64,000 bases of DNA from Dehalococcoidia bacterium (GCA_965117035.1 OZ220748.1:2927992-2991991); one strand, 5' to 3'. Shown: positions 18,094 through 61,196, counted from the stretch's first letter. Program-made: numbers and translations. The notes: a model not told the origin generated them from the letters alone.

Positions 18094-19610
<1,517 letters not shown>

Positions 19611-21210: not shown

Positions 21211-21218
21211 TACTCGCC

Positions 21219-22693: not shown

Positions 22694-22709
22694 AGAGAAC
22701 GTACTCGCC

Positions 22710-22760: not shown

Positions 22761-22774
22761 TACTCGCCTAGATT

Positions 22775-34776: not shown

Positions 34777-35979
34777 CTAACGCACCGTAACGGCTTCCGA
34801 GAATGGAGAGCAACCAGCCTTGTTGCATGCCCTGACCTGGTACTTGGTAGTAGAGAAAGCCCCGAACGATGAGTTGGGGGAATAGTCCCTATAGCTGGTC
34901 TGTGGGGCGCTTACCTCGGCATCGAGACGGGTTCCCTGATAGACCTCGTAGTAGGTTGCTCTGTCGACGGCCGTCCACGCTACGCCGGCGTCGTCGGTAC
35001 CGGCCGAGACATCGAATTTGAGCCCTTCCACGCCCGTAGGCGTGGCCGGCGGGTCGACGTGACCTGAGGACTCGGTTACTCCGGCAGTCTCGGGGGACAA
35101 TCCGGAACAGCCAACTGCATTGCAGGCCCGAATCGTGTAGTGGTAGGTAGAGTCCTCGTTCAACCCCTGGTCTTCGAGGCGTCCGTCCGTGTCATGCACG
35201 TCGGCTTCCACCCACTCCCCGGACTCGGTAGTATTTCGCCGGCGCACCTGAAGGTGTGTCTCGATAATTCCCCTTCCCCATAGCGCCGCCGCAATCGTGA
35301 GACTGCTGTCGGACCGGTCAACGACCCTGATTGCCGTCGGAGCATTCGGCGGAAAGTCTACCACTGCGCCCGCGTCCAAGAGCATTTGCGCAATATCAAA
35401 GCGGCCCCCGTCGACCGCCGCGTAAAGGGGCGTATTGTCCTCACGGTCCCTTGCGGCCACGTCCGCCCCTGCGTCCAGGAGAATCCGCACAATCCGAGGA
35501 TCGCCCATGTTGATGGCAGCGTGAAGGAGCGGACGGTCATTGCGGTCTCTTGCGTTCACGTCCGCCCCTGCGTCGAGGAGAATTCGCACAATCCGAGGAT
35601 GGCTTTCGTAGATCGCAACGTGGAGGGGCGTGTCACCCCCGCCTCCCTCTCTTGCGTTCACGTCCGCCCCCGCATCCACGAAAATCTGCACAATCTCAGA
35701 ATTGCCTTCGTCAATCGCAGCGTGAAGGAGTGGTCGGTCGTAGCGGTCTCTTGCGTTGACGTCCGCCCCCGCATCCATGGCTCGCGTGACAGCCAGTGGG
35801 TCACGCGAGTCTATGGCGCTGAGCAGTTCGGATACGGCCGCTGGCTCTTCCGTGGTCTGGTCACGCGAGTCCACGCGGTCCAATATCTCGGAGTCGGTCC
35901 CTGGCTCTGAACATCCGGCCAGGACCATTGCACCCAGTATTGGGACAGCAACCAGCCAACTCGTGACGGCTTTCGTCAT
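34777..35979 (-). CDS. lipoprotein with 4-5 ankyrin repeats and two FN3-like domains
   Basis: ATG 35979 is preceded by AAGGAG 6 nt upstream. The signal peptide with lipobox is MTKAVTSWLVAVPILGAMVLAGC. The ANK units read PLLHAAI....IVRILLDAGADVNARD. The C-terminal domains end in Y.[IV]RACN..GCS. Confidence 0.8.
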   Translation of the reverse strand: MTKAVTSWLVAVPILGAMVLAGCSEPGTDSEILDRVDSRDQTTEEPAAVSELLSAIDSRDPLAVTRAMDAGADVNARDRYDRPLLHAAIDEGNSEIVQIFVDAGADVNAREGGGGDTPLHVAIYESHPRIVRILLDAGADVNARDRNDRPLLHAAINMGDPRIVRILLDAGADVAARDREDNTPLYAAVDGGRFDIAQMLLDAGAVVDFPPNAPTAIRVVDRSDSSLTIAAALWGRGIIETHLQVRRRNTTESGEWVEADVHDTDGRLEDQGLNEDSTYHYTIRACNAVGCSGLSPETAGVTESSGHVDPPATPTGVEGLKFDVSAGTDDAGVAWTAVDRATYYEVYQGTRLDAEVSAPQTSYRDYSPNSSFGAFSTTKYQVRACNKAGCSPFSEAVTVR

Positions 35980-36029
35980 TGTAGTCTCCTTTGGCCAAGA
36001 GGCCCCTGCGTGGCTCAGGCACTGCACTG

Positions 36030-36701
36030 TCATTTGCCAAGCTCCATGTTGTCGAGCAACCCGCTTCGCACGGCCCAGACCACCAACTCCTGCTTGGTCT
36101 CTATCCCCAGCTTGTCCTGGATCCCGTAGATGGCGTTTCGGATGGTCAGCGACTGATTGCCCCTGACCCTGGCGATCTGCGCGTAGGACTGCCCCTGGGC
36201 GAACAGCGTGAGTATGTCTCGCTCCCGATCGGTCAGTCTGTCCGAGGCACCCGTCTCCTGGCGCTTCGCTGTACGGATTCCTGAGATCATCCGCCTTATG
36301 GCGTCCGGTGGGATGCGGTATTCGCCCCTGGCGACATCTCTGGCGGCGCGCAGCAGGTCTCTCTTGCCCGAGTACTTTTGAAGGTAGCCCACGGCGCCGG
36401 CTGTGAGAGCCTCCACCACGGCGTCCTCTTCCGATGCGGCGGTGAGGATCAGCACGCGGGCGTCCGGGAGTGTCTCCGTGATTTCCCGGCAGGCGTCGAT
36501 GCCGTTCTTGAGCGGCATCATGACGTCCATTATGACCACGTCCGGCTCGACGCTCCGCGCAACCCTTACGGCGGTCTCGCCATCGCCGGCCTCGCCGACG
36601 ACCTCGAAGGCGCCGGAACGCTCCAGCACCTCGCGCAGGCCATCCCTCATGATTTCATGGTCGTCGACGAGCAGCACTCTTGTCCGTGCAGTTGGCGGCA
36701 C
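36030..36701 (-). CDS. NarL/FixJ-family response regulator (REC + LuxR HTH)
   Basis: The protein reads RVLLVDDHEIMRDGL...DVVIMDVMMPLKNG..., with a C-terminal HTH LTDRERDILTLFAQGQSYAQIARVRGNQSLTIRNAIYGIQDKLG. Confidence 0.9.
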   Translation of the reverse strand: MPPTARTRVLLVDDHEIMRDGLREVLERSGAFEVVGEAGDGETAVRVARSVEPDVVIMDVMMPLKNGIDACREITETLPDARVLILTAASEEDAVVEALTAGAVGYLQKYSGKRDLLRAARDVARGEYRIPPDAIRRMISGIRTAKRQETGASDRLTDRERDILTLFAQGQSYAQIARVRGNQSLTIRNAIYGIQDKLGIETKQELVVWAVRSGLLDNMELGK

Positions 36702-36702
36702 G

Positions 36703-37926
36703 CTAGATTCCTTTCTGGTCCTCGTCCTGCGGAATGACGCAGGTTACGGTTGTGCCGCGGCCACCCTCTCCGGGGCCCAGCTCGAGCCTGCCGCCCATGC
36801 GTTCCGCGTCAGCCCTCATGTTCCTGAATCCGTGGCCGCGTTCGGTGTAGTCGTCAGGGAGACCGTCCCCGTCGTCCGATATGGACATCCAGAGGCTGCC
36901 GGCCTCGAAACGCAGTGAGATGTCGACCCTGGACGCATTCGAGTGACGAAGCGCGTTCGTCATGGCGTTGTGGGCTATCGAGAACAACAGCTGTCCGGTG
37001 GTGGATGAGAGCGGCGGCTCGAAGCCCGACTTGACGACTTCGGTCGGGATGGACGTGATTGTCGTGAAAGCCGAGGCGTGGGACCTGAGAACGCGGCTCA
37101 GCTCGCGTCCGTCGAGTACCGAGCCTATGTCGACGGGATGCCTCAGCTCCCACATCGCCGACTTCGACAGCGCATGGGTCGCCCTCAGCTTGGCCAGCAG
37201 CTCGTCGCGGCTCCCGTCCTTCCGGGCGTCGGCAAGCTCGATCGCCGTCTCAAGGCCCAGGCCGATAACGTAGGCGGACTGGGCTATCGTGTCATGGATG
37301 GTCTGGGAGAGCTCTATGCGCTCTCGCTGGAGCCTGCGTTCACGCTCCACCGCCTCCCGCCGTCTGGTGCGTTCGAACCTCGAGACCAGGTTGACTGCCA
37401 CGACAACGGCGTACATGACGACGACCCTCATGAACAGGACCTTTTCTTCTCCTATCTCGAAGTCGACGCCGGGCTCCACCGTCAGGCTCAGGGTCGTGTA
37501 AACGGCAGCCACCAATGTGACCCCCGCCAGGCTCAGCCACGGAGAGGTGAACACCACGGCGAACATCGCCAGCGAGGCGTAGTACAGGACGAAGAAGGTG
37601 TTCGCGAACCCCCCGGAAATCCAGAACCCCGCCGTAAGCATGACCGCGTCCATGACGCTGAGGGCGAGAGCCCAGTGCCACGTGACCGAACGTCCTGTCT
37701 CGATTCGGTAGTGGGCGTAGCCATTGAGCGAGAGCAGCAACAGGGCAAAGAGCGTGTGGGCCACAAAGGAGGGATGGTCGAAGCTGACCCGATAGTTGTG
37801 CTGGACCAGCCATGCGGCTACCAGCAGCCATCGCACCCACACCGAAATCCTCAGGCTATAGCGCAGATCGTCGGGATCGGTCCGATCAGGCGCTTGGCCC
37901 AACTCTCTGACAAGGCGTCGCATCAT
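36703..37926 (-). CDS. HisKA_3-type sensor histidine kinase with an N-terminal polytopic membrane domain
   Basis: The H-box is LSQTIHDTIAQSAY and the ATPase blocks are HNAMTNALRHSNA, DDGDGLP and GHGFRNMR. The start is uncertain (37926 MMRRLV... or upstream to 38097). The stop is 1 nt from the response-regulator start. Confidence 0.8.
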   Translation of the reverse strand: MMRRLVRELGQAPDRTDPDDLRYSLRISVWVRWLLVAAWLVQHNYRVSFDHPSFVAHTLFALLLLSLNGYAHYRIETGRSVTWHWALALSVMDAVMLTAGFWISGGFANTFFVLYYASLAMFAVVFTSPWLSLAGVTLVAAVYTTLSLTVEPGVDFEIGEEKVLFMRVVVMYAVVVAVNLVSRFERTRRREAVERERRLQRERIELSQTIHDTIAQSAYVIGLGLETAIELADARKDGSRDELLAKLRATHALSKSAMWELRHPVDIGSVLDGRELSRVLRSHASAFTTITSIPTEVVKSGFEPPLSSTTGQLLFSIAHNAMTNALRHSNASRVDISLRFEAGSLWMSISDDGDGLPDDYTERGHGFRNMRADAERMGGRLELGPGEGGRGTTVTCVIPQDEDQKGI

Positions 37927-38332
37927 TTTGAATTCAAGCCTATACCCAGGTACTCTACGCCGCTCCGGCCATCTGACAAGGTTCGTTTGTACCGCGGCAT
38001 GAGGGGTACATATGCACCGCGACAAGTCGGTACAACCGAACCTTACGACCTCGCCAGAGGAACGGCAACATGGGCGCCATGGAGTCACAATTGGCATGAC
38101 CGCTGACCGCTGTCGCCTGGCATTTCCTGTCCCGCCAGGCCGGAGCCAGGGCTCGCGAGTCGATCGCAGCTATGTTGGCGCGGGCAGCCCTGCCGGGGCC
38201 GGGCACATACCTTGACCGAATGCGCGCCGAGATGCAACATACACCACGCGAGCCGCAATCCGTCGCCAGCCTGCCTGTCGGCTGGAGTGTGCGACGGTTC
38301 GAGCGGGAAACTCGAGAAGGCAGGCTGAGCTC

Positions 38333-41300
38333 ATGAGCTGCGGAGCCCTCTGGATCAGCCGTCGTCTTGTCCTCCGCAGATCAGCCGCGCCTGTCTTCGC
38401 GTCCGCGCTGGCGATGCTGCTCACGCTGGCGTCGCTCGCGTGCGGCGCGGAACCTCCCACGCCCCAGCGCGAAACCCCGTCTCCGCCCGCGGGCGGCTCG
38501 CCAGGGAGCACGGAGCCCGGCACGGGCATCGAAGTGCAACCGAGGCCCGGGCCACAGCCTACGGTCACAGCGCTTCCCACCGCCACGCCCTATCCTACGG
38601 CGACCCCATTTCCGACGGCGGCGCCCGTGGCGGGGGCCGTCGCGACCCAGCCGCCGACGATCGCCGTGACGACGCCCGCGCCGGGCGCGGCGGCGACGCC
38701 CACCGCGACGGCGGCGGCGGTCGGACCGTCCGGCGCCCCAACCGGCTCCGCCCAATTCTCCTTCTCCCGGAAGACCGAGCTGACGCACCCGAAGGTAGGG
38801 ACCGCCCTCAACCAACTCATAGCCAGGGTCGAGGCCGGCGAGATATCCGCTGAGGAAGCCGCAAGCCAGGCCCCCATTCACCGAGAGGACTCGATAGGAG
38901 TGGCCATACATCTCTCAGGCAACGTGGACGACGTAGTTCGCTTCCTGGAAGCCAACGGCGCCTCCAACATATCTGCCAGGGACGACTATATCGAAGCGTA
39001 CGTGCCTGTCCTGCTGCTGGCCGAGACCTCTGAGCAGCCTGGAGTCGTCCGGGTGCGGCCCATTCAGCCTCCGGAAGAACCCCAGAGCGGGTCTGGGATT
39101 CCCGGCAACGGTCCCGGAGTGCACGGTTCGGCGGCCTGGAACCAGGCGGGGTTCACCGGCAAGGGCATCAAGGTGGGAGTGATCGACGGCGGTTTCGGCG
39201 GATTTGCAGACATCATGGGCACCGAGGTGCCCACAACTGTCCAAGCGAGGTGTTACCTGGGGTTGGGGGAACACTCCGACGACCTGGAGCACTGCGGGGG
39301 CAGTACTCACGGCACGGTCGTCGCAGAGTCGGTCATCGACATTGCCCCGGAGGTATCGCTGTACATCTCGGACCCCCAGTCGCCCGGAGACCTGAGGGAC
39401 GCGGTCGACTGGATGATCTCTCAGGGCGTATCGGTCATCAACCACTCGAGGACGTGGCTATTCGACGGTCCCGGCGATGGTACTTCCCCCGCCTCCGTCA
39501 GCCCGCTGAACACCGTGGACAGGGCCGTGGAAGCGGGGATCGTCTGGGTCAACGCGACGGGGAACTCAGCGCAGCGCGCCTGGTTCAAACGCGGTCCGTT
39601 TTCCTACACCACCATAACTGTCGATGGCCAGGACTTCAGAGTCCTCAACTTCGATGAGGCCAACTTCAGGAACAGGTTTCATGTGTGGGGCCCGCTCCAA
39701 CTGCGATGGGACGACACCTGGAGTGGGGCGACCAGAGACCTTGACCTTTTCCTGGCGAGCCCAGATGGCGGCGAGATCACGTTGGTCAGTATCGACCCTC
39801 AATCAGGAGAGGATGGGCACATTCCCTATGAACGGGTGGTCGCCTTCGCGAGCTACGACATCATGATCGCCCACCATAGCGGCAGCGAGCCAGGTTGGAT
39901 TCAGCTCCTGGCGTGGCAAGGAGAAGGGCTGGCATTCAACACCCCGGACGCCGGCAGCACCATCAACCCTGCGGAGAGCACCAGCTCGGGCATGCTCGCG
40001 GTGGGCGCGGCTCATTGGAACAACGTGACTTCCATACAGTCCTACAGCAGCCGGGGGCCAACTCCCGACGGCCGCACCAAGCCGGACGTGGTGGCGGCGG
40101 ATTGCGGGGAAACGGCCTCGGCTTCCCGTCCCTTCTGCGGGACCAGCCAGGCGGCCCCTCACGTTGCCGGCATGGCCGCCCTGGTACGCCATAGATTTCC
40201 CGGCTATACGCCGGCGCAGGTTGTCGCCTACCTGAAGGAGAACGCGGACCAACGGGTCAACAGCCCCGATCCCAACGACACCTGGGGGCACGGCTTCGTC
40301 GTGCTCCCATCGATCTCCCCGCAGCTATCGGGCTCTCCGACTATTACGTCGCTGACCGGCGGCGCGCGGTCCCTGACGGCGACGTGGTCGGCGCCGTCCA
40401 GTGACGGAGGCTCGGCCATAACAGCGTACGACCTGCGCCACATCCGCAGCGACGCCTCCAGCAAGGCCGATTCGAACTGGACGGTGGTGGAGGACGTCTG
40501 GACCGGCTCCGGTGCGCTGACCCACGTGCTGACAGGCCTCGCTGTCGGCGCCCGGTACGACGTCGAGGCGCGCGCCGTCACCGCCGCCGGCGACGGGCCC
40601 TGGTCCGCGACGATGTCAGGGGCAACCGCATCGACTGCACCGGGGGCGCCGACCGGACTGACGGCGGCCGCTAGCGGACAAACGCAGATCGATTTGTCGT
40701 GGAGCGCACCGTCGAACACAGGCGGCTCGCCGATCACCGGCTACCGCATCGAGGTGGCCGAAGACGGCTCGAGTTGGAGCGACCTCGTCGGCAATACGCG
40801 ATCGGCGGCCACGACGTACTCTCATACAGGGCTGATCGGTGGGAGCACCCGGCACTACCGGGTCTCGGCCATCAACTCGGTCGGGACAGGTACGGTGTCC
40901 AACGTCTCCTTCGCCACCACCGCCGCCGCACTCGCGCCCGAACTGGTGGTCGGCACGCCGACGGTGAGCGAGAGCGCTCCGACAGCGGGGGCGCGCTTCA
41001 CGCTGAGCGCCACGGTCCGCAACCAGGGCAGCGGCCGTTCGGACTCGACGACGCTGCGCTACTATCGCTCCACCGACCCGGCGATCACCACCGGTGACAC
41101 GGAGGTCGGCACGGACTTCGTGTCCCGGCTCGACGCATCTGCGAGCGGCGACGAGTCGATCAGCCTGACCGCTCCGTCTACGCCTGGCACGTACTACTAC
41201 GGCGCGTGCGTGGAAGCGGTGTCCGATGAGACCGACACGACCAACAACTGCTCCGTTGCGGTGACAGTGACGGTCGGGACCGCGCCTGCGTCTGACCTGG

Positions 41301-44300
41301 TGGTGGAAACGCCCACGGTCGACACCAGCGCTCCGACTGCGGGAGCGCGCTTCACGCTGAGCGCGACGGTGCGCAACCAGGGCAGTGGCCGTTCGGACTC
41401 GACCACGCTGCGCTACTACCAGTCGACCGACTCGACGATCACGACCGGCGACACGGAGGTCGGCACCGACTCGGTGTTCGGCCTTGGGGCTTCTGCGAGC
41501 GGCGACGAGTCGATCAGCCTGACGGCTCCGTCTACGGCGGGGACGTACTACTACGGCGCCTGCGTGGACGCCCTGTCAGACGAGACCGACACGACCAACA
41601 ACTGCTCCGTTGCCGTGACGGTGACGGTCGGAGCGGCTCCCGCGCCGGACCTGGTGGTGGACACGCCCACGGTCGATACCAGCGCTCCGACTGCGGGAGC
41701 GCGCTTCACGCTGAGCGCGACGGTGCGCAACCAGGGCAGCGGCGCGTCGGCGTTCACGACGCTGCGCTACTACCAGTCAACCGACTCGACGATCACGACC
41801 GGCGACACGGAGGTCGGCACGGACTCGGTGTTCCGCCTTGCGGCATCGGCGAGCGGCGACGAGTCGATCAGCCTGACGGCTCCTGCGACCGCGGGCACGT
41901 ACTACTACGGCGCGTGCGTGGACGCGGTGTCGGATGAGACCGACACGACGAACAACTGCTCGTCCGCGGTGACGGTGACCGTCGGAGCTGCGCCCGCGCC
42001 GGATCTCGTCGTGGACACGCCGACCGTCGATACCAGCGCACCTGTAGCGGGAGCACGCTTCACGCTGAGCGCCACGGTCCGCAACCAGGGCAGCGGCCGT
42101 TCGGACTCGACGACGCTGCGCTACTACCAGTCCACCGACCCGGCGATCACCACCGCAGACACGGAGGTGGGCACGGACTTCGTGTCCCGGCTTGACGCAT
42201 CTGCGAGCGGCGACGAGTCGATCAACGTGACGGCTCCTGCGGCCGCGGGCACGTACTACTACGGCGCGTGCGTGGAAGCGGTGCCCGATGAGTTGGACAC
42301 GACCAACAACTGCTCCGTTGCGGTGACGGTGACAGTCGGGGCCGCGCCTGCGCCTGACCTGGTGGTGGAAACGCCCACGGTCGACACCAGCGCACCTGTG
42401 GCGGGAGCGCGTTTCACGCTGAGCGCGACGGTGCGCAACCAGGGCAGCGGCGCGTCGGCGTTCACGACGCTGCGCTACTACCAGTCGACCGACTCGACGA
42501 TCACGACCGGCGACACGGAGGTCGGCACGGACTCGGTGTTCCGCCTGGCGGCATCTGCGAGCGGCGACGAGTCGATCAGCGTGACGGTTCCGTCGACTGC
42601 GGGGACGTACTACTACGGCGCGTGCGTGGAAGCGGTGTCGGATGAGACCGACACGACGAACAACTGCTCGTCCGCGGTGACGGTGACAGTCGGGGCCGCG
42701 CCGGCGCCGGACCTCGTCGTGGACACACCCACCGTCGACACCAGTGCACCTGTGGCCGGGGCGCGCTTCACGCTGAGGGCGACGGTACGCAACCAGGGCA
42801 GCGGCGCGTCGGGCTCGACCACGCTGCGCTACTACCGGTCGACCGACTCGACGATCACGACGGGCGACACGGAGGTCGGCACGGACTCGGTGTTCCGTCT
42901 TGCGGCATCGGCGAGCGGCGACGAGTCGATCAGCCTGACGGCTCCGTCGACTGCGGGGACGTACTACTACGGCGCGTGCGTGGAAGCGGTGTCCGATGAG
43001 TCGGACACGACCAACAACTGCTCCGTCGCCGTGACGATGACGGTCGGAGCCGCGCCCGCGCCTGACCTGTTGGTGGACACTCCCACGGTCGATACCAGCG
43101 CTCCGACTGCGGGGGCATCGTTCACGTTGAACGCCACAGTACGCAATCAGGGCAGCGCCCGTTCGGGCTCGACGACATTGCGTTACTACCGGTCAGCCGA
43201 CTCGACGATCACGACCGGCGACACGGCGGTCGGCACCGACTCGGTGTCCGGTCTTGCAGCGGCGGGGAGCGGCGACGAGTCGATCAGCCTGACCGCTCCG
43301 TCTACGCCTGGCACGTACTACTACGGCGCGTGCGTGGACGCGGTGTCCGATGAGACTGACACGACCAACAACTGCTCCGCCGGGGTGACGGTGACGGTCG
43401 GAGCGGCTCCCGCGCCCGACCTGGTGGTGGGCGCGCCCACGGTGGACGCCAGCGCACCTGTGGCGGGAGCGCGCTTCACGCTGAGCGCCACGGTGCGCAA
43501 CCAGGGCAGCGGCGCGTCGGACTCGACCACGCTGCGCTACTACCAGTCGACCGACTCTACGATCACCACCGGAGACACGGAGATCGGTACGGACACGGTG
43601 TTCCGGCTCGCCGCATCCGCGGAGGGGAGCGAGTCGATCAGCCTGACGGCTCCGTCGACTGCGGGGACGTTCTACTACGGCGCGTGCGTGGACGCGGTGT
43701 CCGAAGAGACCGACACGACGAACAACTGCTCCGTTGCGGTGACAGTGACGGTCGGGGCCGCGCCGGCGCCGGACCTCGTCGTGGACACACCCACCGTCGA
43801 CACCAGTGCACCTGTGGCCGGGGCGCGCTTCACGCTGAGGGCGACGGTACGCAACCAGGGCAGCGGCGCGTCGGGCTCGACCACGCTGCGCTACTACCGG
43901 TCGACCGACTCGACGATCACGACGGGCGACACGGCGGTCGGCACCGACTTGGTGTCCGGTCTTGCGGCATCGGCGCGCGGCGGCGAGTCGATCAGTCTGA
44001 CGGCTCCGTCGACGGCAGGCACGTACTACTACGGCGCGTGCGTGGAAGCGGTGTCCGATGAGCTAGACACGACCAACAACTGCTCCGTCGCCGTGACGAT
44101 GACGGTCGGAGCCGCGCCCGCGCCTGACCTGTTGGTGGACACTCCCACGGTCGATACCAGCGCTCCGACTGCGGGGGCATCGTTCACGTTGAACGCCACA
44201 GTACGCAATCAGGGCAGCGCCCGTTCGGGCTCGACGACATTGCGTTACTACCGGTCAGCCGACTCGACGATCACGACCGGCGACACGGCGGTCGGCACCG

Positions 44301-46846: not shown

Positions 46847-46878
46847 CTTTCGGACCCGCGACAATCGATTCAGAGGGA

Positions 46879-47739
46879 ATGACGGAATTCTTCACAGGGA
46901 GGTACGACGTGAGGTATCTCGATGCTCTGCGCCGCGTTGCCGGCCGGCGGCTGTCACCGCTGGCCGGAGCGCTGGCCGTGACGACCCTCGTCGCGTGCGG
47001 CATCTTCCCGGTTGACGAGACGCCCGTTCCAACGCCCACCGCCGTTACCCAACAGCCCGCCCCGGCCGCAACGGCCCCGGCTGCTTCGACCGCCCAGTCG
47101 CCGACGGTGGCGGCAACCACCCCGGTCGCCCCGTCCGGGTCGGCGGCCACGCCCGCGCCCGCAGGGTCAGGTCTCTATCGCGCGGTCTGGACGAACGACG
47201 TCGACGACATGGAGAAGCTCATCGCCGGCGGAGCCGATGCGAACTCCAGGGGGCCGGATGGCGAGCCCCTTCTGTACGAGGCCATATGGCGAAACCATCG
47301 TGAAGTCGCAAGGATCCTGATCGACGCTGGCGCGGACGTCAACGCCAGCGACTCCGACGGCGATCCACTGCTGCTCGAAGCCATATGGAGGGATCATCCC
47401 GGCATTGCGCAGATCCTGATCGACGCTGGCGCGGACGTGGACGCCAGGGACTCCGACGGCAATCCGCTCCTGCTCGAAGCCATATGGAGAAATCATGCCG
47501 GCATCGTGCAGATCCTGGTCGACGCTGGCGTGGACGTGGACGCGAAGGACGCAGAGGGCGATCCTCTCCTGTACGAAGCTGTCTGGAGAAACCATGTCGA
47601 GGTCGCGAGGATTCTGGTAGGCTCGGGCGCGGACGTTAACGCCAGGAGGGCGAATGGCGAGTCTCTCCTCTACGAGGCGCGTTGGAGAGGACATGCGGCC
47701 ATCGAGCAGATCCTGGTCGATGCGGGCGCCCAGGAATAG
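46879..47739 (+). CDS. lipoprotein with P/T/A-rich linker and five ankyrin repeats
   Basis: The start is taken at ATG 46879 (MTEFFTG...). The lipobox is AVTTLVAC. There are five very regular 33-aa units: G.PLL.EAIWRNH..[IV]A.ILIDAGADV[ND]A.D. Confidence 0.8.
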   Translation: MTEFFTGRYDVRYLDALRRVAGRRLSPLAGALAVTTLVACGIFPVDETPVPTPTAVTQQPAPAATAPAASTAQSPTVAATTPVAPSGSAATPAPAGSGLYRAVWTNDVDDMEKLIAGGADANSRGPDGEPLLYEAIWRNHREVARILIDAGADVNASDSDGDPLLLEAIWRDHPGIAQILIDAGADVDARDSDGNPLLLEAIWRNHAGIVQILVDAGVDVDAKDAEGDPLLYEAVWRNHVEVARILVGSGADVNARRANGESLLYEARWRGHAAIEQILVDAGAQE

Positions 47740-47803
47740 GGACGTATTCATCGGAAGCGCCTGACTTGGGACAACCGCACGCTGGGCCATCATGAGGTGA
47801 CAT

Positions 47804-48325
47804 TTGGGCAGATACTGCACGAGCTGCGGGTCGCAAAACGACGACGCCGCGAAATTCTGCAGGGACTGTGGCAAGGCCATGTCCGGGTCGACGCCGGGTG
47901 CTGGGAGGTCGGAGTCGGCGTCTCCCAGTGGCACGGGCGATGGGATGACAATCGGATACTATCTCGAAGGGCTTCGGGAGTACTTCAACTTCGAGGGGCG
48001 TGCCAGTCGAGCGGAGTTCTGGTGGTTCACCCTGGTCCTTTACGCCATCCAAATTGGGATCGTTGTCCTCGACACGGTACTGGGCATGTTCTCTCCGGGA
48101 CTTCAGCTACTATCTACCGCCGTACTCTGGATACACGGATTGGCCACGTTTATCCCGCATTTGGCAGTAGGCGTCCGACGGCTGCACGACACGGGGAGGA
48201 GTGGTTGGTGGGTGCTGATCATCCTGGTACCGTTCATCGGTTGGATTCCGCTATTGATCTTCTTGGTTCTACCGACCGATCCGCGCCCGAACAGCTACGG
48301 CCGCGGGCCAGGCACTAGGTGGTGA
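47804..48325 (+). CDS. zinc-ribbon + DUF805 (YhaH/YhaI-like) membrane protein
   Basis: A TTG start with GAGGTGA upstream. The N-terminus is GRYCTSCGSQNDDAAKFCRDCGKAM. The DUF805-like core is FEGRASRAEFWWFTLVLY...VGVRRLHDTGRSGWWVLIILVPFIGWI. Confidence 0.75.
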   Translation: MGRYCTSCGSQNDDAAKFCRDCGKAMSGSTPGAGRSESASPSGTGDGMTIGYYLEGLREYFNFEGRASRAEFWWFTLVLYAIQIGIVVLDTVLGMFSPGLQLLSTAVLWIHGLATFIPHLAVGVRRLHDTGRSGWWVLIILVPFIGWIPLLIFLVLPTDPRPNSYGRGPGTRW

Positions 48326-48383
48326 CGCAGGGTCACAAAGCCAAGTCCCCGCCGGTGATCCCGAGTCTCGGAGGCTGAGTACG

Positions 48384-50072
48384 ATGGTTTGCAAGTACTG
48401 CGGAGTCGAAAACGACGACGGAGCCGCGTTCTGCAGGAACTGTGGACGTGCAATGAGCGGCTCGCCGCCGGCCGCAGCGGGACGCGACCCTGCGCAGGCC
48501 GATGACACCGTGGATGAAATTCAAGCTCCCACGAAGGCGAGGACCTGGATTTGGGTTGCCATTGGGTCCGCCGCCGCCGTGGTCCTGCTCTTCGTCGGTC
48601 TCATGGCATTCCTGTTTGGAGACAGCCTCGGCATAGGAGATCCGAGCCCGACCAGCACGCCCGCTCCCGTGATGATGTCCGTCAACCTCCTCACGCCAAC
48701 GGCCACGGCCGAGGCTCCGGGCGCTGGCGACCGTCCGGATGAGGTGAGCATTCAGCCCACGCCGCAGCCGACGTATACGCCCAACCCGACGTACACACCC
48801 AATCCGACCTACACGCCCGCTCCGACGCCGACACCCAACCCGACGCCCAATCCCACGGCCACGCCCGATCCGACAGCCACAGCAAGCCCGACAGCGACGC
48901 CCAATCCTACGGCTACGCCCGATCCGACAGCTACACCCAACCCGACGGCGACGCCCAATCCTACCGCCACGGCGAGTGCGACGGCCACGGCGAGCGCGAC
49001 GGCCACGGCGAGTGCGACAGCCACGGCCAGTGCGACGGCCACGGCCAGCGCGACTGCCACGGCGAGTGCGACAGCCACGGCCACGGCAACACCCGGGGCG
49101 ACTTACGCCTGCTCCGAGGGGGCGAACCCTACGCCCCTCCATCGCGCGGTAGATCGGACCAACCTCGAGGTCGTGAGGATCCTGGCCGACAAGTGCCCCG
49201 GAGACCTGAACGTCGTCAGCGACGAATACTTCTACGATCAGACGCCCCTCAGCCTTGCTATCGGGAAAGGGCGCAAGGAGATTGTCAGGGCACTGGTCAC
49301 GGCAGGGGCCGACCCGGACGTCAAGATCAACCCTGCCTTCCGAGTGGGGACTCACCTCACCTACGCAGTTGGTCTAGGAGGCGCGGAGATCGTCCAGATC
49401 TTACTGGACGCAGGCGCGGAACCCAACGTGGTTGACACTGAACAGGCCTACAACCAAACGCCGCTCAGCCTCGCGATCGGTGCCGGCAGAATAGACCTGC
49501 TGCGAAAGCTCATCGCGGCCGGAGCGGACCCTGATGTCAAGATCAATCCTGTTTTCCGAGTGGGGACTCACCTCACCTACGCGGTTGGTCTAGGAGACGC
49601 GGAGATAGTCCAGATCTTACTGGACGCAGGCGCGGAACCCAACGTGGTCGACACTGAACAGTTCTACGACCAAACGCCGCTCAGCCTCGCGATCGGTGCC
49701 GGCAGAATAGACCTGCTGCGAAAGCTCATCGCGGCCGGAGCGGACCCTGATGTCAAGATCAACCCTGCCTCCCGAGTAGGATCTCACCTCACCTACGCGG
49801 TTGGGCTTGAGGATGCGGACGTGGACGTCGTCCAGATCCTCCTGGACGCAGGCGCAGACCCCAACGTGGTCGACACTGAGCAGTTCTATGAAGAATCTCC
49901 GCTCAGCATTGCGGTCAAGGCCCGGGACATTGAGATGGTACGTCTTCTCGTAACCGCTGGCGCGGACCCGAACCAGAAACTCGACCAGTTCAACACAGTC
50001 AGTCCACTCGATATCGCAATCGAGGAAGGATACACAGACATCGTGAAGGTCCTCACGGGCGTCTCGAACTAG
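48384..50072 (+). CDS. zinc-ribbon / single-TM anchored protein with low-complexity linker and ~7 ankyrin repeats
   Basis: The N-terminus is MVCKYCGVENDDGAAFCRNCGRAM and the TM segment is TWIWVAIGSAAAVVLLFVGLMAFLF. The linker is PNPTYT/PTATPN/ATASAT. A 77-aa double-ANK unit is repeated about 3.5 times (GADPDVKINP..RVGTHLTYAVGLG.AEIVQILLDAGAEPNVVD). Confidence 0.8.
   Translation: MVCKYCGVENDDGAAFCRNCGRAMSGSPPAAAGRDPAQADDTVDEIQAPTKARTWIWVAIGSAAAVVLLFVGLMAFLFGDSLGIGDPSPTSTPAPVMMSVNLLTPTATAEAPGAGDRPDEVSIQPTPQPTYTPNPTYTPNPTYTPAPTPTPNPTPNPTATPDPTATASPTATPNPTATPDPTATPNPTATPNPTATASATATASATATASATATASATATASATATASATATATATPGATYACSEGANPTPLHRAVDRTNLEVVRILADKCPGDLNVVSDEYFYDQTPLSLAIGKGRKEIVRALVTAGADPDVKINPAFRVGTHLTYAVGLGGAEIVQILLDAGAEPNVVDTEQAYNQTPLSLAIGAGRIDLLRKLIAAGADPDVKINPVFRVGTHLTYAVGLGDAEIVQILLDAGAEPNVVDTEQFYDQTPLSLAIGAGRIDLLRKLIAAGADPDVKINPASRVGSHLTYAVGLEDADVDVVQILLDAGADPNVVDTEQFYEESPLSIAVKARDIEMVRLLVTAGADPNQKLDQFNTVSPLDIAIEEGYTDIVKVLTGVSN
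48966..49091 (+). repeat. in-frame 18-nt coding minisatellite (GCC ACG GCG AGT GCG ACG)n, about 7 copies
   Basis: It encodes ATASAT six times plus a variant copy. It is preceded (48763-48965) by degenerate 15-18-nt P/T-rich repeats. Confidence 0.9.
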
Positions 50073-50228
50073 GCGTGAGCATGAACGTGGTCAAATTCGG
50101 CAAATGGCGGCGCTCTCGCAGGAGCGATCGGGCGGGGAGTACCGGGATGGTGCGCGGGTTTTCGACGGCTCTCATTGTTCGGGGGAACAGGCGTTTCGGG
50201 TCAGTGACCGGAAAGGAAAGATAGTCAA

Positions 50229-51251
50229 ATGGTACAAACGAGCGGTTACTGCGTGAGCTGCGGCAGCGAAATTGAAGAAGACGCGAGGTTTTGCACGGGA
50301 TGCGGTGCCCCAGTCCAACAGGGCGATCCTCCTGAGGCTGCAGCTGAGGGCAGGAGCAACTATCAGCGCTTTCTCACTGTAGACGCGTCCGGTGGTTTCT
50401 TCGCGACCGTGGGGCCCGCGCTGATCTGGTATGGCGCGGCGGGCGTCCTGATATGGTCCATCATCGGGCTGCTCTCGCTTCGCTTCGACATCGCCGCGGT
50501 GATAGACCTCCCCAACCTGCTGTTCAGCATGCTGATCATGGTTGGGATAGTGCTGAGCGCGACCGCCAGCTACTACCTCCTCCGCAGCTACCGCGAGCGG
50601 GCCGGACGGCTCTGGTACGCGCTCTCGTACCTCCCGGCCGTGTGGGGCGTCTTCATGAGCGTTGGGCTGCTCATCATGATATTGCAGGTGTGGACCGATT
50701 TCGCCTGGGGCCCGGATGACCTCCGAAGGGCCATGTTCTCGCTCATTGGCGTCGGCCTGTGTGGGATATATGGCGGATACCTGGCGCTCATAGTGACCGG
50801 GCTGGAGCGGATATACCAGGTCGCGCGCTGGGTGGTGTATGTCCTGTTGGTCATCATCGCGCTCGAGATCCTGGAGGCGACGTGGCTGACCAGTCGGGAC
50901 CTGTCTGGACAAGAGCTGAGGGACGATTTCCTGGCTGCCGGCGGGACCGCAATTCTAGTTGCAATCGTGTACTCGATCATAGCTGTCATCCTGGCTCAAG
51001 CCGGAGACAGCAAGGCGCGCCTCGCCGTTCTCGTGACGTACGTGGTCCTCGGGCTGTTCGGATTCACGATCGCTGTCTGGGCCCTATGGGACAATCTCCC
51101 TGCGGGTGCTATACGGTTTGTCCACGGGGGAACGGTCTTCGTGGCCATCGCTACTATCGGACTATTGGTCGTACGGCATTTCCACAAGCACAGGGGCAAC
51201 CCCAACGTACCGGCAGTCAGCGGAGAATCCTCAGCCCAAAGCGGGACCTGA
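50229..51251 (+). CDS. zinc-ribbon protein with a ~8-helix polytopic membrane domain
   Basis: The N-terminus is MVQTSGYCVSCGSEIEEDARFCTGCGAPV, followed by eight hydrophobic segments. I recognise no family for the membrane domain. Confidence 0.65.
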   Translation: MVQTSGYCVSCGSEIEEDARFCTGCGAPVQQGDPPEAAAEGRSNYQRFLTVDASGGFFATVGPALIWYGAAGVLIWSIIGLLSLRFDIAAVIDLPNLLFSMLIMVGIVLSATASYYLLRSYRERAGRLWYALSYLPAVWGVFMSVGLLIMILQVWTDFAWGPDDLRRAMFSLIGVGLCGIYGGYLALIVTGLERIYQVARWVVYVLLVIIALEILEATWLTSRDLSGQELRDDFLAAGGTAILVAIVYSIIAVILAQAGDSKARLAVLVTYVVLGLFGFTIAVWALWDNLPAGAIRFVHGGTVFVAIATIGLLVVRHFHKHRGNPNVPAVSGESSAQSGT

Positions 51252-51332
51252 AATCGCTCAGGGAAAGAGGGGACATTGAGCCGCTTCGGACCGATTGGCG
51301 GCAGGCAGTCATGAATCGTGGAGGCTGAGCCC

Positions 51333-53240
51333 ATGTATTGCAAGAGCTGCGGGTCGGAAAACGACGATGGCGCCAGGTTCTGTAGGGACTGCGGACGTGC
51401 AATCACCGGCTCGTCGCCGCGCGTAGAGACAGGTGCCTCCGCGGATGGCGGCGACACGCCGGACGCAGTCGAAGCTCCCGCGAAGGCGAACACCTGGATC
51501 TGGGTTGCCGGTATAGCGGGGCTTGTCGCGGTCCTGCTGTTCGCAGGTCTCATCGCCCTGGTCCTGGCAGCAACATCCGGTTCTTCACGCCAAACGGATC
51601 GTGAGGCGTTGGAAGTCCTCTTCCAAGCCACCAGCGGGCACAGCTGGCTCGAAAGCAAAAACTGGTTGACCGACGCCCCACTGGGTGAATGGACGGGCGT
51701 CACGACAGACGAGGACGGGCGCGTGACTGGACTGGACCTTGGCGCAAACGAACTATCGGGCCGTATACCTCCCGAGCTGGGCAACCTTGACCGACTGCGC
51801 ACGCTCGACCTGGCCGCCGAGCGGACCGTGACGACTCTCAGAGGGGGAGTGAGGATCACGTTTGGGGGTGACTCCCCGAGTCTCTCGTCCCAGCTCAAAC
51901 AGGCAGGCAGGCAACTGGCGGAATCGGCCGAGACCAGCATCCGCAGGAACTACCTGAGCGGATGTATTCCGACCAGTCTCAGGGAACAGTTGGATATGAG
52001 CGCATCGGATCTCGGCGGCCTGCCGTTTTGCGACGGGTGGAGTGCGCCAACTGGGGACATCACGCGCGCTGGCCCGGATACGACACCTTCAAGGGAGGGA
52101 ACAGAGGGCCGGGACGGACCACCCAAGCCAGCCCAGGTTGCCGATAACAGGCCACCCGCTCCTGAGAACGTGCGGTATGTCTGGGATGAATCGACGATCA
52201 TCGTGACCTGGGACGCGTCGGAAGGCGCCGAATACTACACCATCTATCACGACGACTTCTTTGACAATTCCTGCACCGTCGTGGGTGACGGCACCCCGGC
52301 ATTCTGCGAAGAGCTGGCGTCGAACGTCCGTGAGAACTCATACGTCCATGCCGATCCGGACGGTGGCGAAAACCACTACTGGGTAACCGCGTGCGTTCGC
52401 GACGGATGCTCGGAGATCGACTCCCATAGCCCGGCCGAGTACGTCGACACCAGGCCGGCGAGTCCGACAAACGTGCGGGTGCAGTTTGTGCAGGACGGCA
52501 CGCAGATTCAGGTCTCCTGGGACCCGGTGCCGGACGCGGGGCACTACAAGATCTATTACGACGATTTCTTTGGTGACAACTGTCGAGTGGACAGGTTCGG
52601 CGACGCGAGCTTCTGCGACCTCTTGGCTTCAGACATACGACAGACGAGCTACCTTCACGCACGCCCAGCCAGGGACGAGAACTACTACTGGGTCGTCGCC
52701 TGCAACAGCGGCGGCTGCTCGGATGTCGACCGCGAGAACCCTGCAGTGCCCGCGGATTCTTCACGGTCCGCAACTGCGCCAGCGGTCAGCCCGTCTCCCG
52801 AGCCATCGGAAACGGCGACTGAGCCTGACGCGTCCCGGAGGTCGTTCGAAGCGTCAACGCCGCCGGGCTACACTCGAGTCATGCTGACTGACCAGGGGAG
52901 CGTATGGGGAACTCCGGAGAGGTTTACGACCGATTCAAGGCTCGGCGCCGTCGCGTATATGCTGCTCGGAAGTGTGAAAGGCTGCAGCTTTGCCAGGGAG
53001 GAGTTGAGACGTTCAAGCATAGTCCATATCAAGGTGGAGCGACTGGGGCGCCTTGCGACGTACGAATCTGGAGACGCCTGCGGCAAGACCAGCAGGAAAT
53101 GGGACACTGGCTGGGAAGGTATGAAGATGGCCCGTCTACGCATCTTTGACGAGAGCAGTCCCGCGAACGTCAGGGAGTACGTCTACGATCAAGCCGCTGG
53201 AGAGTATGTCGAATCGCCCGCATCCGGCGACTTCAACTAG
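51333..53240 (+). CDS. zinc-ribbon / single-TM anchored protein with plant-type LRR N-cap + LRRs, two Cys-containing FN3-like domains and a unique C-terminal domain
   Basis: The N-terminus is MYCKSCGSENDDGARFCRDCGRAI and the TM segment is TWIWVAGIAGLVAVLLFAGLIALVL. The LRR part is DREALEVLFQATSGHSWLESKNWLTDAPLGEWTGVTTDEDGRVTGLDLGANELSGRIPPELGNL. The FN3-like units end in YWV[TV]AC...GCS. Confidence 0.8.
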   Translation: MYCKSCGSENDDGARFCRDCGRAITGSSPRVETGASADGGDTPDAVEAPAKANTWIWVAGIAGLVAVLLFAGLIALVLAATSGSSRQTDREALEVLFQATSGHSWLESKNWLTDAPLGEWTGVTTDEDGRVTGLDLGANELSGRIPPELGNLDRLRTLDLAAERTVTTLRGGVRITFGGDSPSLSSQLKQAGRQLAESAETSIRRNYLSGCIPTSLREQLDMSASDLGGLPFCDGWSAPTGDITRAGPDTTPSREGTEGRDGPPKPAQVADNRPPAPENVRYVWDESTIIVTWDASEGAEYYTIYHDDFFDNSCTVVGDGTPAFCEELASNVRENSYVHADPDGGENHYWVTACVRDGCSEIDSHSPAEYVDTRPASPTNVRVQFVQDGTQIQVSWDPVPDAGHYKIYYDDFFGDNCRVDRFGDASFCDLLASDIRQTSYLHARPARDENYYWVVACNSGGCSDVDRENPAVPADSSRSATAPAVSPSPEPSETATEPDASRRSFEASTPPGYTRVMLTDQGSVWGTPERFTTDSRLGAVAYMLLGSVKGCSFAREELRRSSIVHIKVERLGRLATYESGDACGKTSRKWDTGWEGMKMARLRIFDESSPANVREYVYDQAAGEYVESPASGDFN

Positions 53241-53265
53241 CTCCGCAGGCACCACGGTACGGACA

Positions 53266-55469: not shown

Positions 55470-55478
55470 GGCCAGGGG

Positions 55479-57168: not shown

Positions 57169-57175
57169 GGCGAGC

Positions 57176-59232: not shown

Positions 59233-59239
59233 GCTCCTC

Positions 59240-60127: not shown

Positions 60128-60128
60128 G

Positions 60129-61124
<996 letters not shown>

Positions 61125-61196
61125 GTCAGTAAAGAGGCTCCTGTACGAGTAGCCGGCCCACGAGCAAAGAATAATGTGGCGACAGTGTACCGAATC

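What the first reader, a model, noticed from the sequence alone, without database searches (positions are those of the whole stretch)
34777..53240. 18-kb island densely packed with exported ankyrin / LRR / FN3 / CARDB repeat proteins
Seen in sequence: six co-directional plus-strand genes (38333-53240) have gaps of only 32-156 nt. An ANK-FN3 lipoprotein lies on the other strand (34777-35979). Every product has a signal peptide, lipobox or TM anchor. Three separate genes carry ankyrin repeats, one carries plant-type LRRs, and three carry FN3-like domains. Established knowledge: ankyrin, LRR and FN3 'eukaryotic-like' proteins are enriched in host-associated bacteria, notably sponge symbionts and intracellular pathogens, where ANK proteins can modulate phagocytosis. 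Inference: this is a host- or particle-interaction island, and the organism may be host-associated. The ANK arrays are unusually regular and consensus-like, which suggests recent amplification.
Basis: partly seen in the sequence, partly recalled or inferred. Interest (0 to 1): 0.65.

Follow-up and report, generated by a model that had tools for sequence, protein, structure and literature searches.

The report
Surface repeat-protein cluster, sponge-type Dehalococcoidia
This is a real but ordinary example of something already known: a chromosomal gene cluster in a Dehalococcoidia (Chloroflexota) bacterium of a sponge-associated lineage that encodes membrane-anchored, outward-facing ankyrin, LRR and FN3-like proteins and a giant subtilisin-type protease, next to a two-component regulator; it was inherited vertically, not recently acquired.

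Summary
The genes exist at the stated coordinates. Three carry strong ankyrin arrays. One 2837-aa protein carries 16 CARDB and 2 FN3 domains. All seven listed products have a lipobox, signal peptide or TM anchor. The LRR is one Pfam repeat at threshold. FN3 in the last gene is sub-threshold.

The organism is a Dehalococcoidia. Relatives and the only metagenome hits come from sponges (Aplysina aerophoba), so host association is supported indirectly.

"Island" in the sense of recent acquisition is not supported. The cluster is collinear in three related contigs. Its dS equals that of the flanking Bat/MoxR operon, dN/dS is 0.16-0.36, and no mobility genes sit at the borders. The low GC3 is also present in relatives.

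Recent repeat amplification holds for part of the CARDB array and one ankyrin gene only.

Best reading: a regulated set of surface-displayed adhesion/host-interaction proteins plus a protease, built by domain shuffling. New member of a known kind; modest interest.

The parts
34777..35979 (-). Gene A: lipoprotein with about 5 ankyrin repeats and two FN3-like domains that end in a Y-x-V/I-R-A-C-N-x-x-G-C-S motif.
   Evidence: Pfam Ank_4 8e-33; fn3 26.6 bits. Lipobox LAGC at residues 20-23. AAGGAG lies 7 nt upstream of the ATG at 35979 (read from the sequence). The second FN3-like domain matches the FN3-like domain of gene I, BLASTP E=5e-4. No ortholog in L081-L083.
36030..36701 (-). Response regulator, NarL/LuxR type (receiver + GerE HTH).
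   Evidence: Response_reg 2e-28, GerE 6e-8. 82-84% identical orthologs sit in the same position in L082 and L083.
36703..37929 (-). Histidine kinase: HisKA_3 + HATPase_c, with an N-terminal block of about 5 TM helices and no large external loop. The ORF runs to 38097, but the likely start is M57 at 37929.
   Evidence: Pfam; TM scan. Orthologs of 396-420 aa align from residue 58-62.
37952..38254 (.). Conserved non-coding block between HK and D. It holds the palindrome GGTACAtaTGcACC at 38005-38018 plus flanking GTAC half-sites. This is a candidate operator of the LuxR-type regulator.
   Evidence: The block aligns in the window, L081, L082 and L083. The palindrome is unique in the window (expected 0.01) and perfect in L082. 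A -35/-10-like site for HK lies at 37979-37952. No Rfam match.
38333..46846 (+). Gene D: 2837-aa exported S8 subtilase. Order: signal peptide, P/T/A-rich linker, propeptide-like region, catalytic domain (about 39134-40252), 2 FN3 (40355-40912), 16 CARDB repeats of 354 nt (40913-46561), C-terminal beta-rich tail.
   Evidence: Peptidase_S8 2e-23 and fn3. CARDB 3e-192. Alignment to subtilisin BPN' keeps Asp, His, Asn and Ser (VIDGG, HGT, TGN, GTSQAAPH). Repeat table. About 740 nt (42660-43400) are 94-100% identical to the stretch 1062 nt downstream.
46879..47739 (+). Gene E: lipoprotein with a P/A/T linker and 5-6 ankyrin repeats.
   Evidence: Ank_4 1e-27. Lipobox LVAC. Orthologs in L081, L082 and L083 are 73%, 60% and 57% identical, with the lipobox conserved as I-A/V-A-C.
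47804..48325 (+). Gene F: N-terminal zinc ribbon plus DUF805 membrane domain (TTG start).
   Evidence: DUF805 4.5e-33, Zn_Ribbon_1 1.6e-6. 92% identical over all 173 aa in L081, zinc ribbon included. Absent from L082.
48384..50072 (+). Gene G: zinc ribbon, one TM, about 170-aa P/T and ATASAT linker (48768-49083), then 7-8 ankyrin repeats of 36 aa in alternating A/B units.
   Evidence: Ank 9e-45, Zn_Ribbon_1 6e-7. TM at residues 60-78 with K/R on the N side. 216-nt tandem at 89%, locally 98%.
50229..51251 (+). Gene H: zinc ribbon plus about 8 TM helices. It belongs to a family found only in Chloroflexota-labelled records.
   Evidence: Zn_Ribbon_1 3e-8 only. 58 homologues; the two that carry a source name are labelled Chloroflexota/Chloroflexi, and the rest are unnamed. 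In more distant genomes it stands alone among housekeeping genes. The AF2 model is unusable, pLDDT 49.
51333..53240 (+). Gene I: zinc ribbon + TM (51333-51587), capped mini-LRR domain (51588-52067), two Cys-rich FN3-like domains (52158-52742), and a C-terminal 150-aa domain with no Pfam family (52788-53237).
   Evidence: P0001 is 100% identical and 635 aa long, which fixes the ATG at 51333. Domain dissection. C-terminal domain: AF2 pLDDT 87, no Pfam hit, and only a weak LCCL-like fold match.
53266..61124 (-). Right flank: BatE-like TPR/SH3, BatD, TPR, VWA, BatA, DUF58 and MoxR operon. It is not part of the cluster but is syntenic with it in relatives.
   Evidence: Pfam. L081 gene table. 87% nt collinearity from 50231 to 61228.

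Best explanation
The region is a vertically inherited, fast-remodelling chromosomal cluster of a Dehalococcoidia (SAR202-related) bacterium from a sponge-associated lineage. It encodes cell-surface proteins.

Five products expose protein-binding repeat domains (ankyrin, a capped mini-LRR, Cys-rich FN3-like, CARDB) on the outer face of the cytoplasmic membrane. They are held there by one of three anchors: a lipid anchor (A, E), a signal peptide (D), or an N-in/C-out anchor made of a cytoplasmic zinc ribbon plus one TM helix, followed in G by a long P/T-rich stalk (G, I). D is in addition an active-looking subtilisin-type protease on a stalk of 16 CARDB domains.

An adjacent intramembrane-type histidine kinase and a LuxR-type regulator probably control at least their own operon, and possibly the protease, through a conserved GGTACAnnTGTACC operator.

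Inferred function: adhesion to, and proteolytic processing of, host or particle surface and matrix proteins. The ankyrin proteins may act from the bacterial surface on host cells (for example to evade phagocytosis) rather than being injected.

Shown here: domain content, anchors, intact catalytic residues, conservation, purifying selection, domain shuffling. Inferred: surface exposure, regulation by the two-component system, the ligands, and the host.
For: DOMAINS AND ANCHORS.

ECTODOMAIN TOPOLOGY.
- The same LRR-cap, ankyrin and C-terminal modules occur in relatives behind either a lipoprotein signal peptide (P0053, P0008) or the zinc-ribbon-TM module (P0035).
- The zinc-ribbon-TM module is also fused to Big_9 + cadherin + ankyrin in P0129.
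- K/R residues lie on the N side of the TM.
- The FN3-like domains carry 4 Cys each.
- The lipobox is conserved in E orthologs.

VERTICAL INHERITANCE. Collinearity with L081 and L082. dS is 0.19-0.40 in the cluster against 0.30-0.43 in the flank, and dN/dS is 0.16-0.36.

LINK TO THE TWO-COMPONENT SYSTEM. HK and RR lie next to the S8-CARDB gene in the window, L082, L083 and L089, and inside the cluster in L081. A conserved palindrome lies about 80 nt upstream of HK.

SPONGE LINK.

LITERATURE. Ankyrin/LRR/FN3 proteins are enriched in sponge Chloroflexota; few of those lineages have secretion systems; TM helices and signal peptides are common on such proteins (PMC6306507, PMC8163846, PMC3909097).
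Against: - No direct evidence of expression, localisation or ligand.
- The source sample of the window is unknown.
- The lookups that returned L081-L083, L089 and L090 report only ERZ sample accessions, so their habitats are also unknown.
- F and H are generic membrane proteins. H is stand-alone elsewhere, so the six-gene run need not be one functional unit.
- No terminator or promoter signal distinguishes operon structure.
- L081's two-component system is only 49-54% identical to the window's and sits elsewhere. In L081 the conserved operator block lies upstream of the MoxR/Bat operon, so its target is uncertain.
- Ankyrin domains normally act in the cytosol. An extracellular role rests on topology inference only.
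Confidence: 0.62

Rival explanations
1. A recently acquired genomic island: eukaryote-like genes brought in by horizontal transfer as a block.
For: A, F, G, H and I have GC3 of 0.68-0.75 and a synonymous-codon score like the IS transposases in the window, against 0.82-0.95 for core genes. Lateral transfer of such genes among sponge symbionts is reported (PMC8163846). IS elements lie 10 kb to the left. The modules are clearly shuffled between proteins.
Against: The same order of genes and the same right flank occur in L081 (83-87% nt) and L082. Cluster dS is no greater than flank dS. The GC3 deficit is equally present in the orthologs of L081 and L082. No integrase, tRNA or direct repeats lie at the borders. 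D, E, HK and RR are compositionally near-normal.
Confidence: 0.1
2. Primarily a feeding locus. The subtilase degrades extracellular protein (host matrix or dissolved/particulate organic matter). The repeat proteins are substrate- or particle-binding accessories with no role in manipulating a host.
For: The catalytic residues are intact. This S8 domain belongs to a large family (at least 865 hits) fused to CARDB, LRR, FN3, cadherin, PPC and solute-binding domains. The S8-plus-two-component-system core is the most conserved part, and L083 keeps it with only ankyrin genes downstream. Sponge Chloroflexi are proposed degraders of organic matter (PMC6306507).
Against: It does not explain three separate ankyrin proteins, which are not known substrate-binding modules of proteases. 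No peptide transporter or peptidase genes are in the cluster. It overlaps the best explanation rather than excluding it.
Confidence: 0.2
3. The zinc-ribbon-TM proteins are single-pass receptors. Ligand binding by the ankyrin, LRR or FN3 ectodomain is relayed through the cytoplasmic zinc ribbon to an intracellular partner, perhaps the neighbouring two-component system.
For: Four consecutive genes share a homologous N-terminal zinc ribbon, and G and I are 52-53% identical over 58-83 aa. The full module occurs in only about 10 of 1.84 billion cluster representatives. A two-component system is always nearby.
Against: The module is freely exchanged with lipoprotein signal peptides on the same ectodomains, as expected of a passive anchor. 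Zinc ribbons also head the generic membrane proteins F and H and 1846 unrelated proteins. No known signalling domain is present.
Confidence: 0.08

Closest known systems
Eukaryote-like repeat proteins (ankyrin, LRR, TPR, FN3, cadherin) of sponge symbionts (Nguyen et al. 2014; Reynolds & Thomas 2016; Kamke et al. 2014, PMC3909097; Bayer et al. 2018, PMC6306507; Robbins et al. 2021, PMC8163846)
   Same: Same domain families and the same host-associated lineage (SAR202/Dehalococcoidia). Signal peptides or TM helices are frequent, with most of the protein outside. There is evidence of module exchange.
   Different: Here the genes are described as one conserved locus, together with a subtilase and a two-component system. 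Two of them use a lineage-specific zinc-ribbon-TM anchor. I did not find that anchor or the clustering mentioned in the papers I read, and I ran no literature search for it.
Ankyrin effectors of intracellular pathogens (Legionella, Coxiella, Anaplasma, Rickettsia), delivered by type IV secretion. This comparison rests on my own knowledge.
   Same: Ankyrin repeat arrays in a bacterium that lives with a eukaryote; presumed protein-protein interaction with host factors.
   Different: Those effectors lack Sec or lipoprotein signals and need an injection machine. These proteins have a lipobox or a TM anchor, and no secretion system is in the window. Sponge Chloroflexota mostly lack such systems. 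The mode of action would be from the cell surface.
Surface LRR adhesins such as Listeria internalins (my own knowledge; cited in PMC3909097)
   Same: An N-capped LRR domain followed by Ig/FN3-like domains on a monoderm cell surface.
   Different: Gene I has only about 2-3 LRRs of the plant-specific type, with an insertion and a Cys-containing C-cap. It has a zinc-ribbon-TM anchor at the N-terminus instead of a C-terminal LPXTG or GW anchor.
Large multidomain subtilases (peptidase family S8) with CARDB or FN3 stalks
   Same: The Asp/His/Ser triad and the oxyanion Asn align with subtilisin BPN'. The C-terminal beta-sandwich repeats resemble many family members.
   Different: The array is unusually long (16 CARDB repeats, 2837 aa). 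Part of it was duplicated very recently. The gene is consistently paired with a HisKA_3/LuxR two-component system.
Ankyrin proteins of sponge-associated phages ('Ankyphages', Jahn et al. 2019; cited in PMC10947273)
   Same: Ankyrin proteins proposed to dampen the host response to bacteria.
   Different: No phage genes lie near this cluster, and it is chromosomal and syntenic in relatives.

Membership tests
Ankyrin-repeat proteins (Pfam Ank clan) | Significant matches to the Ank / Ank_2 / Ank_4 models in tandem 33-aa repeats. | tested here: met
   A: 8e-33. E: 1e-27. G: 9e-45. Periods are 33, 33 and 36 aa.
Leucine-rich repeat proteins (plant-specific type) | Several tandem repeats matching LxxLxLxxNxLSGxIPxxLGxL above the Pfam threshold. 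| tested here: inconclusive
   There is one LRR_1 hit at exactly the cut-off (20.6 bits), seen only when the segment is scanned alone. The motif LDLGANELSGRIPPELGNLDRLRTLDL is plant-type. Homologous caps in P0008 and P0012 continue into long LRR_8-positive arrays.
Fibronectin type III | Pfam fn3 at or above 25 bits. | tested here: met
   D: 76 bits, two copies. A: 26.6 bits, marginal. I: 17.7-19.3 bits, not met by Pfam, though I is related to A's domain (E=5e-4) and to PF21910/PF00041-positive relatives.
CARDB | Pfam CARDB matches. | tested here: met
   3e-192 with 16 stretches. 16 repeats of 118 aa.
Peptidase S8 (subtilases) | Asp-His-Ser triad in subtilisin order plus the oxyanion Asn. | tested here: met
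   Peptidase_S8 2e-23. The alignment to subtilisin BPN' keeps D (VIDGG), H (HGT), N (TGN) and S (GTSQAAPH). Activity was not tested.
Horizontally acquired genomic island | Atypical composition. | tested here: inconclusive
   GC3 is 0.68-0.75 in A and F-I against 0.82-0.95 in core genes. The same deficit is present in the orthologs of L081 and L082, so it is old or expression-related.
Horizontally acquired genomic island | Mobility genes, a tRNA or direct repeats at the borders; absence from close relatives. | tested here: not met
   The borders are oligopeptidase B and the Bat operon. The nearest IS is 10 kb away and the tRNA 17 kb away. The cluster is present and collinear in L081 and L082, with dS equal to the flank.
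Secretion-system-delivered ankyrin effectors | No N-terminal Sec signal; a cognate type III/IV/VI system. | tested here: not met
   All three ankyrin proteins have a lipobox or a TM anchor. No secretion-system gene is in the window. The whole genome was not examined.
Eukaryote-like proteins of sponge symbionts | Encoded by a bacterium living in a sponge. | not testable with these tools
   The evidence is indirect. The nearest identifiable relatives and the only JGI metagenome hits come from sponges. Exact-sequence look-ups of five window proteins, P0001 among them, returned no contig or sample. The ERZ samples of L081-L083 could not be resolved.
NarL/LuxR-type two-component system | HisKA_3 + HATPase_c kinase paired with a receiver + GerE regulator. 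| tested here: met
   Phosphotransfer and the regulon were not tested; the operator is inferred.

The most novel reading that the evidence does not exclude
A conserved, two-component-controlled 'surface cassette' of sponge-associated Dehalococcoidia. In it, a lineage-restricted cytoplasmic zinc-ribbon + TM module serves as a swappable anchor, and perhaps an intracellular handle, for eukaryote-type ectodomains. These include ankyrin repeats working outside the cell and a previously undescribed, weakly LCCL-like domain. This would answer, for symbionts without injection systems, how eukaryote-like proteins reach the host: they are displayed, not delivered.
Probability: 0.2. Interest if true: 0.55.

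Novelty: new member of a known kind. Interest (0 to 1): 0.36.

Why it matters
Robbins et al. point out that most sponge symbionts lack secretion systems, so it is unclear how their eukaryote-like proteins meet the host. This locus gives a concrete, testable example. Every ankyrin, LRR or FN3 protein in it carries a Sec-type anchor. Relatives put the same ectodomains behind interchangeable anchors. The locus has a candidate regulator and operator. It offers defined constructs for phagocytosis, adhesion and protease assays. It does not change the current picture of sponge symbiosis.

Tried and rejected
- Exact-sequence look-ups of five window proteins, including the 100% match P0001, found no contig, so the source sample stayed unknown.
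- A literature search for the accession numbers of the related MAGs found nothing.
- Synteny around oligopeptidase B in 80 genomes was uninformative. Relatives are at most 79% identical and share almost no neighbours.
- The promoter/terminator scan gave no more sites than shuffled sequence, so operon structure is not resolved.
- The Rfam search of the conserved HK-D intergenic block found nothing, so I dropped the idea of a known structured RNA.
- The AlphaFold model of H was too poor to use (pLDDT 49).
- H as a sortase- or processing-type enzyme for the cluster: rejected. Its homologues stand alone among housekeeping genes, and I saw no catalytic motif when reading the sequence.
- A phage or 'Ankyphage' origin: rejected for lack of any phage gene.
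- The long alternative ORF 46603-47739 overlapping the end of D: rejected in favour of the ATG at 46879, which yields a lipoprotein signal conserved in orthologs.

Full report
WHAT IS IN THE SEQUENCE

The window is about 65% G+C and carries a bacterial 16S rRNA gene. Between 34.8 and 53.2 kb there are nine genes, not seven.

On the minus strand, in order of transcription:
- A histidine kinase (HK; 36703-37929, with the ORF running to 38097). It has HisKA_3 + HATPase_c domains and about five TM helices.
- A receiver + GerE response regulator (RR; 36030-36701).
- Gene A (34777-35979), after 50 nt. It has a classical lipoprotein signal (lipobox LAGC), about five ankyrin repeats and two FN3-like domains.

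On the plus strand, divergent from the kinase, six genes follow each other with gaps of 32, 64, 58, 156 and 66-81 nt:
- D (38333-46846)
- E (46879-47739)
- F (47804-48325)
- G (48384-50072)
- H (50229-51251)
- I (51333-53240)

DOMAIN CONTENT

- D is a 2837-aa protein. In order it has a signal peptide, a P/T/A-rich linker, a subtilisin-type S8 catalytic domain, two FN3 domains, 16 CARDB repeats of exactly 118 aa, and a short beta-rich tail. The Asp, His, Asn and Ser of the catalytic domain align with those of subtilisin BPN'.
- E is a second ankyrin lipoprotein (lipobox LVAC).
- F, G, H and I all begin with a CxxC-x12-CxxC zinc ribbon followed by TM segments.
  - F continues as a DUF805 membrane protein.
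  - H continues as an 8-TM protein.
  - G continues as one TM, a 170-aa P/T and ATASAT stalk, and seven to eight ankyrin repeats.
  - I continues as one TM, a capped mini-LRR domain, two Cys-rich FN3-like domains, and a 150-aa C-terminal domain with no Pfam match.

The LRR call rests on one repeat at threshold. The FN3 call for I is below the Pfam threshold. The protease, the two-component system and the zinc ribbons were missed. Pfam scans of 20 other genes in the window found no eukaryote-like repeat gene: they are transporters, metabolic genes and IS transposases. The right-flank Bat/MoxR operon has only its usual TPR proteins.

WHOSE GENOME

- Oligopeptidase B on the left flank finds its best relatives (70-79% identity) in Dehalococcoidia/Chloroflexota MAGs. 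These include SAR202 bin22 from the sponge Aplysina aerophoba and Chloroflexi bins of the SB0662 series, which the literature groups with sponge-associated Poribacteria.
- Gene I has a 100% match (P0001) on a 3.79-Mb contig held by NCBI and ENA. No contig or sample record for it could be retrieved.
- Scanning 241 million JGI metagenome records with gene I gave two hits. Both come from the A. aerophoba metagenome MKWU, and one combines the same FN3-like, CARDB and LRR-cap modules.

Host association is therefore well supported by relatives, but not proven for this genome.

IS IT AN ISLAND?

Evidence against recent acquisition:
- Contig L081 carries the I ortholog at 81% identity. It is collinear with the window from E to the MoxR end of the Bat operon at 83-87% nt identity. 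The one difference is that a (paralogous, 49-54% identical) RR-HK pair sits between E and F.
- L082 has RR and HK divergent from the S8-CARDB gene, followed by E, G, H, I and BatE.
- L083 has RR and HK divergent from S8-CARDB, then two ankyrin genes and the MoxR operon.
- L089 has HK, RR and S8-CARDB followed by an LRR-FN3 gene.
- Between the window and L081, cluster genes have dS of 0.19-0.40 and dN/dS of 0.16-0.36. The flanking Bat genes have dS of 0.30-0.43 and dN/dS of 0.08-0.34. The ages are the same, and cluster genes are under purifying selection that is only slightly relaxed.
- The borders carry no integrase, tRNA or repeats.

Composition does deviate. A and F-I have GC3 of 0.68-0.75, like the IS transposases, while core genes have 0.82-0.95. 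The orthologs in L081 and L082 show the same deficit, so this is an old property of these genes, not a mark of recent arrival.

The locus is best described as a conserved hotspot. The two-component system, the subtilase and an ankyrin lipoprotein are stable. A, F, G, H and I come and go.

HOW THE PROTEINS ARE BUILT

- Relatives of I show free recombination of modules.
  - P0035 joins I's zinc-ribbon-TM and LRR cap to G's ankyrin array.
  - P0053 puts the LRR cap, ankyrins and I's C-terminal domain behind a lipoprotein signal.
  - P0008 puts LRR, FN3-like and the C-terminal domain behind a signal peptide.
- P0129 joins the zinc-ribbon-TM module to Big_9, cadherin and ankyrin.
- The S8 domain of D belongs to a family of at least 865 proteins fused to CARDB, LRR, FN3, cadherin or PPC domains.
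- The complete zinc-ribbon + linker + TM module occurs in only about ten of 1.84 billion cluster representatives. The bare zinc ribbon is ubiquitous, with 1846 hits.

The same ectodomains sit behind either a lipobox or the zinc-ribbon-TM module. That module is also fused to cadherin and Big_9 domains, which I know as extracellular domains. I therefore conclude that the ankyrin, LRR and FN3 parts face outward and that the zinc ribbon is the cytoplasmic end of a type II anchor. Chloroflexota are generally single-membraned (my own knowledge), so lipoproteins and type II proteins would be exposed on the cell surface. G's long P/T stalk fits that reading.

REPEATS

- In the CARDB array, repeats 1-10 are 80-99% identical at the nucleotide level, with differences concentrated at third codon positions.
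- About 740 nt (42660-43400) are 94-100% identical to the stretch 1062 nt downstream. This is a recent three-repeat-register duplication or conversion.
- Ankyrin repeats differ by gene. A averages 59% nt identity and E 74%. G is built of alternating 36-aa units in 216-nt doublets that are up to 98% identical.

Recent amplification is therefore real for part of D and for G, but not in general.

REGULATION

- The HK-D intergenic region contains a block conserved in all four related loci.
- Its core is the palindrome GGTACAtaTGcACC (38005-38018). It is unique in the window (expected 0.01), perfect in L082, and flanked by further GTAC half-sites.
- It lies about 25 nt upstream of a -35/-10-like site for the kinase.
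- I read it as the operator of the LuxR-type regulator, giving autoregulation and possibly control of D.
- In L081 the same block lies upstream of the MoxR/Bat operon, so its targets are not settled.

UNKNOWN PARTS

- The C-terminal domain of I folds confidently (pLDDT 87) and has no Pfam family. Foldseek against the PDB gives only weak matches, among them the LCCL domain (E 0.012, TM 0.33/0.45). It recurs at the C-terminus of 18 of 390 collected relatives.
- H belongs to a family of 58 proteins; the only members with a source name are labelled Chloroflexota. In more distant genomes it stands alone among housekeeping genes. It is probably not specific to this cluster. Its model was unusable.

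COMPARISON WITH WHAT IS KNOWN

- Enrichment of ankyrin, LRR, TPR, FN3 and cadherin proteins in sponge symbionts, including SAR202/Dehalococcoidia, is established. So are their frequent TM helices or signal peptides, and their lateral exchange (PMC6306507, PMC8163846, PMC3909097).
- Ankyrin proteins of sponge symbionts have been shown to alter amoebal phagocytosis (Nguyen et al. 2014, as cited in those papers).
- The present locus is a well-resolved new example. Three details are absent from the papers I read (I ran no literature search for them): the zinc-ribbon-TM anchor, the stable pairing of the subtilase with a two-component system and a palindromic operator, and an unassigned C-terminal domain.

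VERDICT

The host-association idea is supported indirectly. The acquired-island idea and the general recent-amplification idea are not supported. The finding is a new member of a known kind and of modest interest.

Noticed in passing
window 17728-19613: 16S rRNA (18097-19613, minus strand) is followed by tRNA-Ala(TGC) (17728-17803), but no 23S rRNA occurs anywhere in the 64 kb. The next gene is a luciferase-like monooxygenase. The rRNA genes appear unlinked.
   Followed up: partly
window 9866-10885 and 19901-24402: IS debris: an IS5-like DUF772/DDE gene, an IS66 transposase, an rve fragment, and a DDE_Tnp_1_4 transposase split into two overlapping ORFs (22929-23837 / 23812-24402), probably frameshifted. 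All have low GC3, like the repeat-protein genes.
   Followed up: partly
window 32343-34523; loci L061-L080: Oligopeptidase B is 64-68% identical to that of Pseudomonadales/Gammaproteobacteria MAG bins (the RHO1, COS1, IRC4 and SB0662 bin series and 'Ca. Azophilus'). That is nearly as close as to many Dehalococcoidia (70-79%). This may reflect inter-phylum transfer among co-resident symbionts.
   Followed up: no
window 38005-38018 (block 37952-38254); L082 9572-9585; L081 20171-20475: A conserved palindrome GGTACAnnTGyACC with flanking GTAC half-sites lies in the HK-D intergenic region. In L081 the whole block lies upstream of the MoxR/Bat operon instead.
   Followed up: partly
window 52788-53237: A 150-aa C-terminal domain of gene I has no Pfam family. 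The AF2 model is confident (pLDDT 87), and the only fold match is a weak one to LCCL. The domain is shared by lipoprotein-ankyrin and S8-protease relatives.
   Followed up: partly
L083 10001-20654; L089 8001-14171: In related contigs the S8-CARDB gene is broken into 4-5 consecutive ORFs within the CARDB array. This could be repeat-induced frameshifts, assembly errors in the repeats, or pseudogenisation.
   Followed up: no
window 48768-49083: The G stalk is encoded by nested 18/36/54-nt tandem repeats (PTYTPN, then TPNPTA, then ATASAT x7). This is a hypervariable-looking linker.
   Followed up: no
window 61842-63371: A type I restriction-modification methylase (HsdM) lies just beyond the point (61228) where collinearity with L081 ends.
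   Followed up: no
window 8553-9566 and 61197-61616: Two low-GC3 ORFs of unknown function; 8553-9566 had no Pfam hit and 61197-61616 was not scanned. One lies next to the IS5-like element and the other between MoxR and HsdM.
   Followed up: no
L090 (ERZ25766727 contig, 1-14667): A more distant S8 homologue sits in a different cluster with a 1809-aa cadherin protein, a collagen-like ORF, and LRR and PPC proteins, and no two-component system. This suggests such surface-protein clusters recur in these genomes.
   Followed up: no
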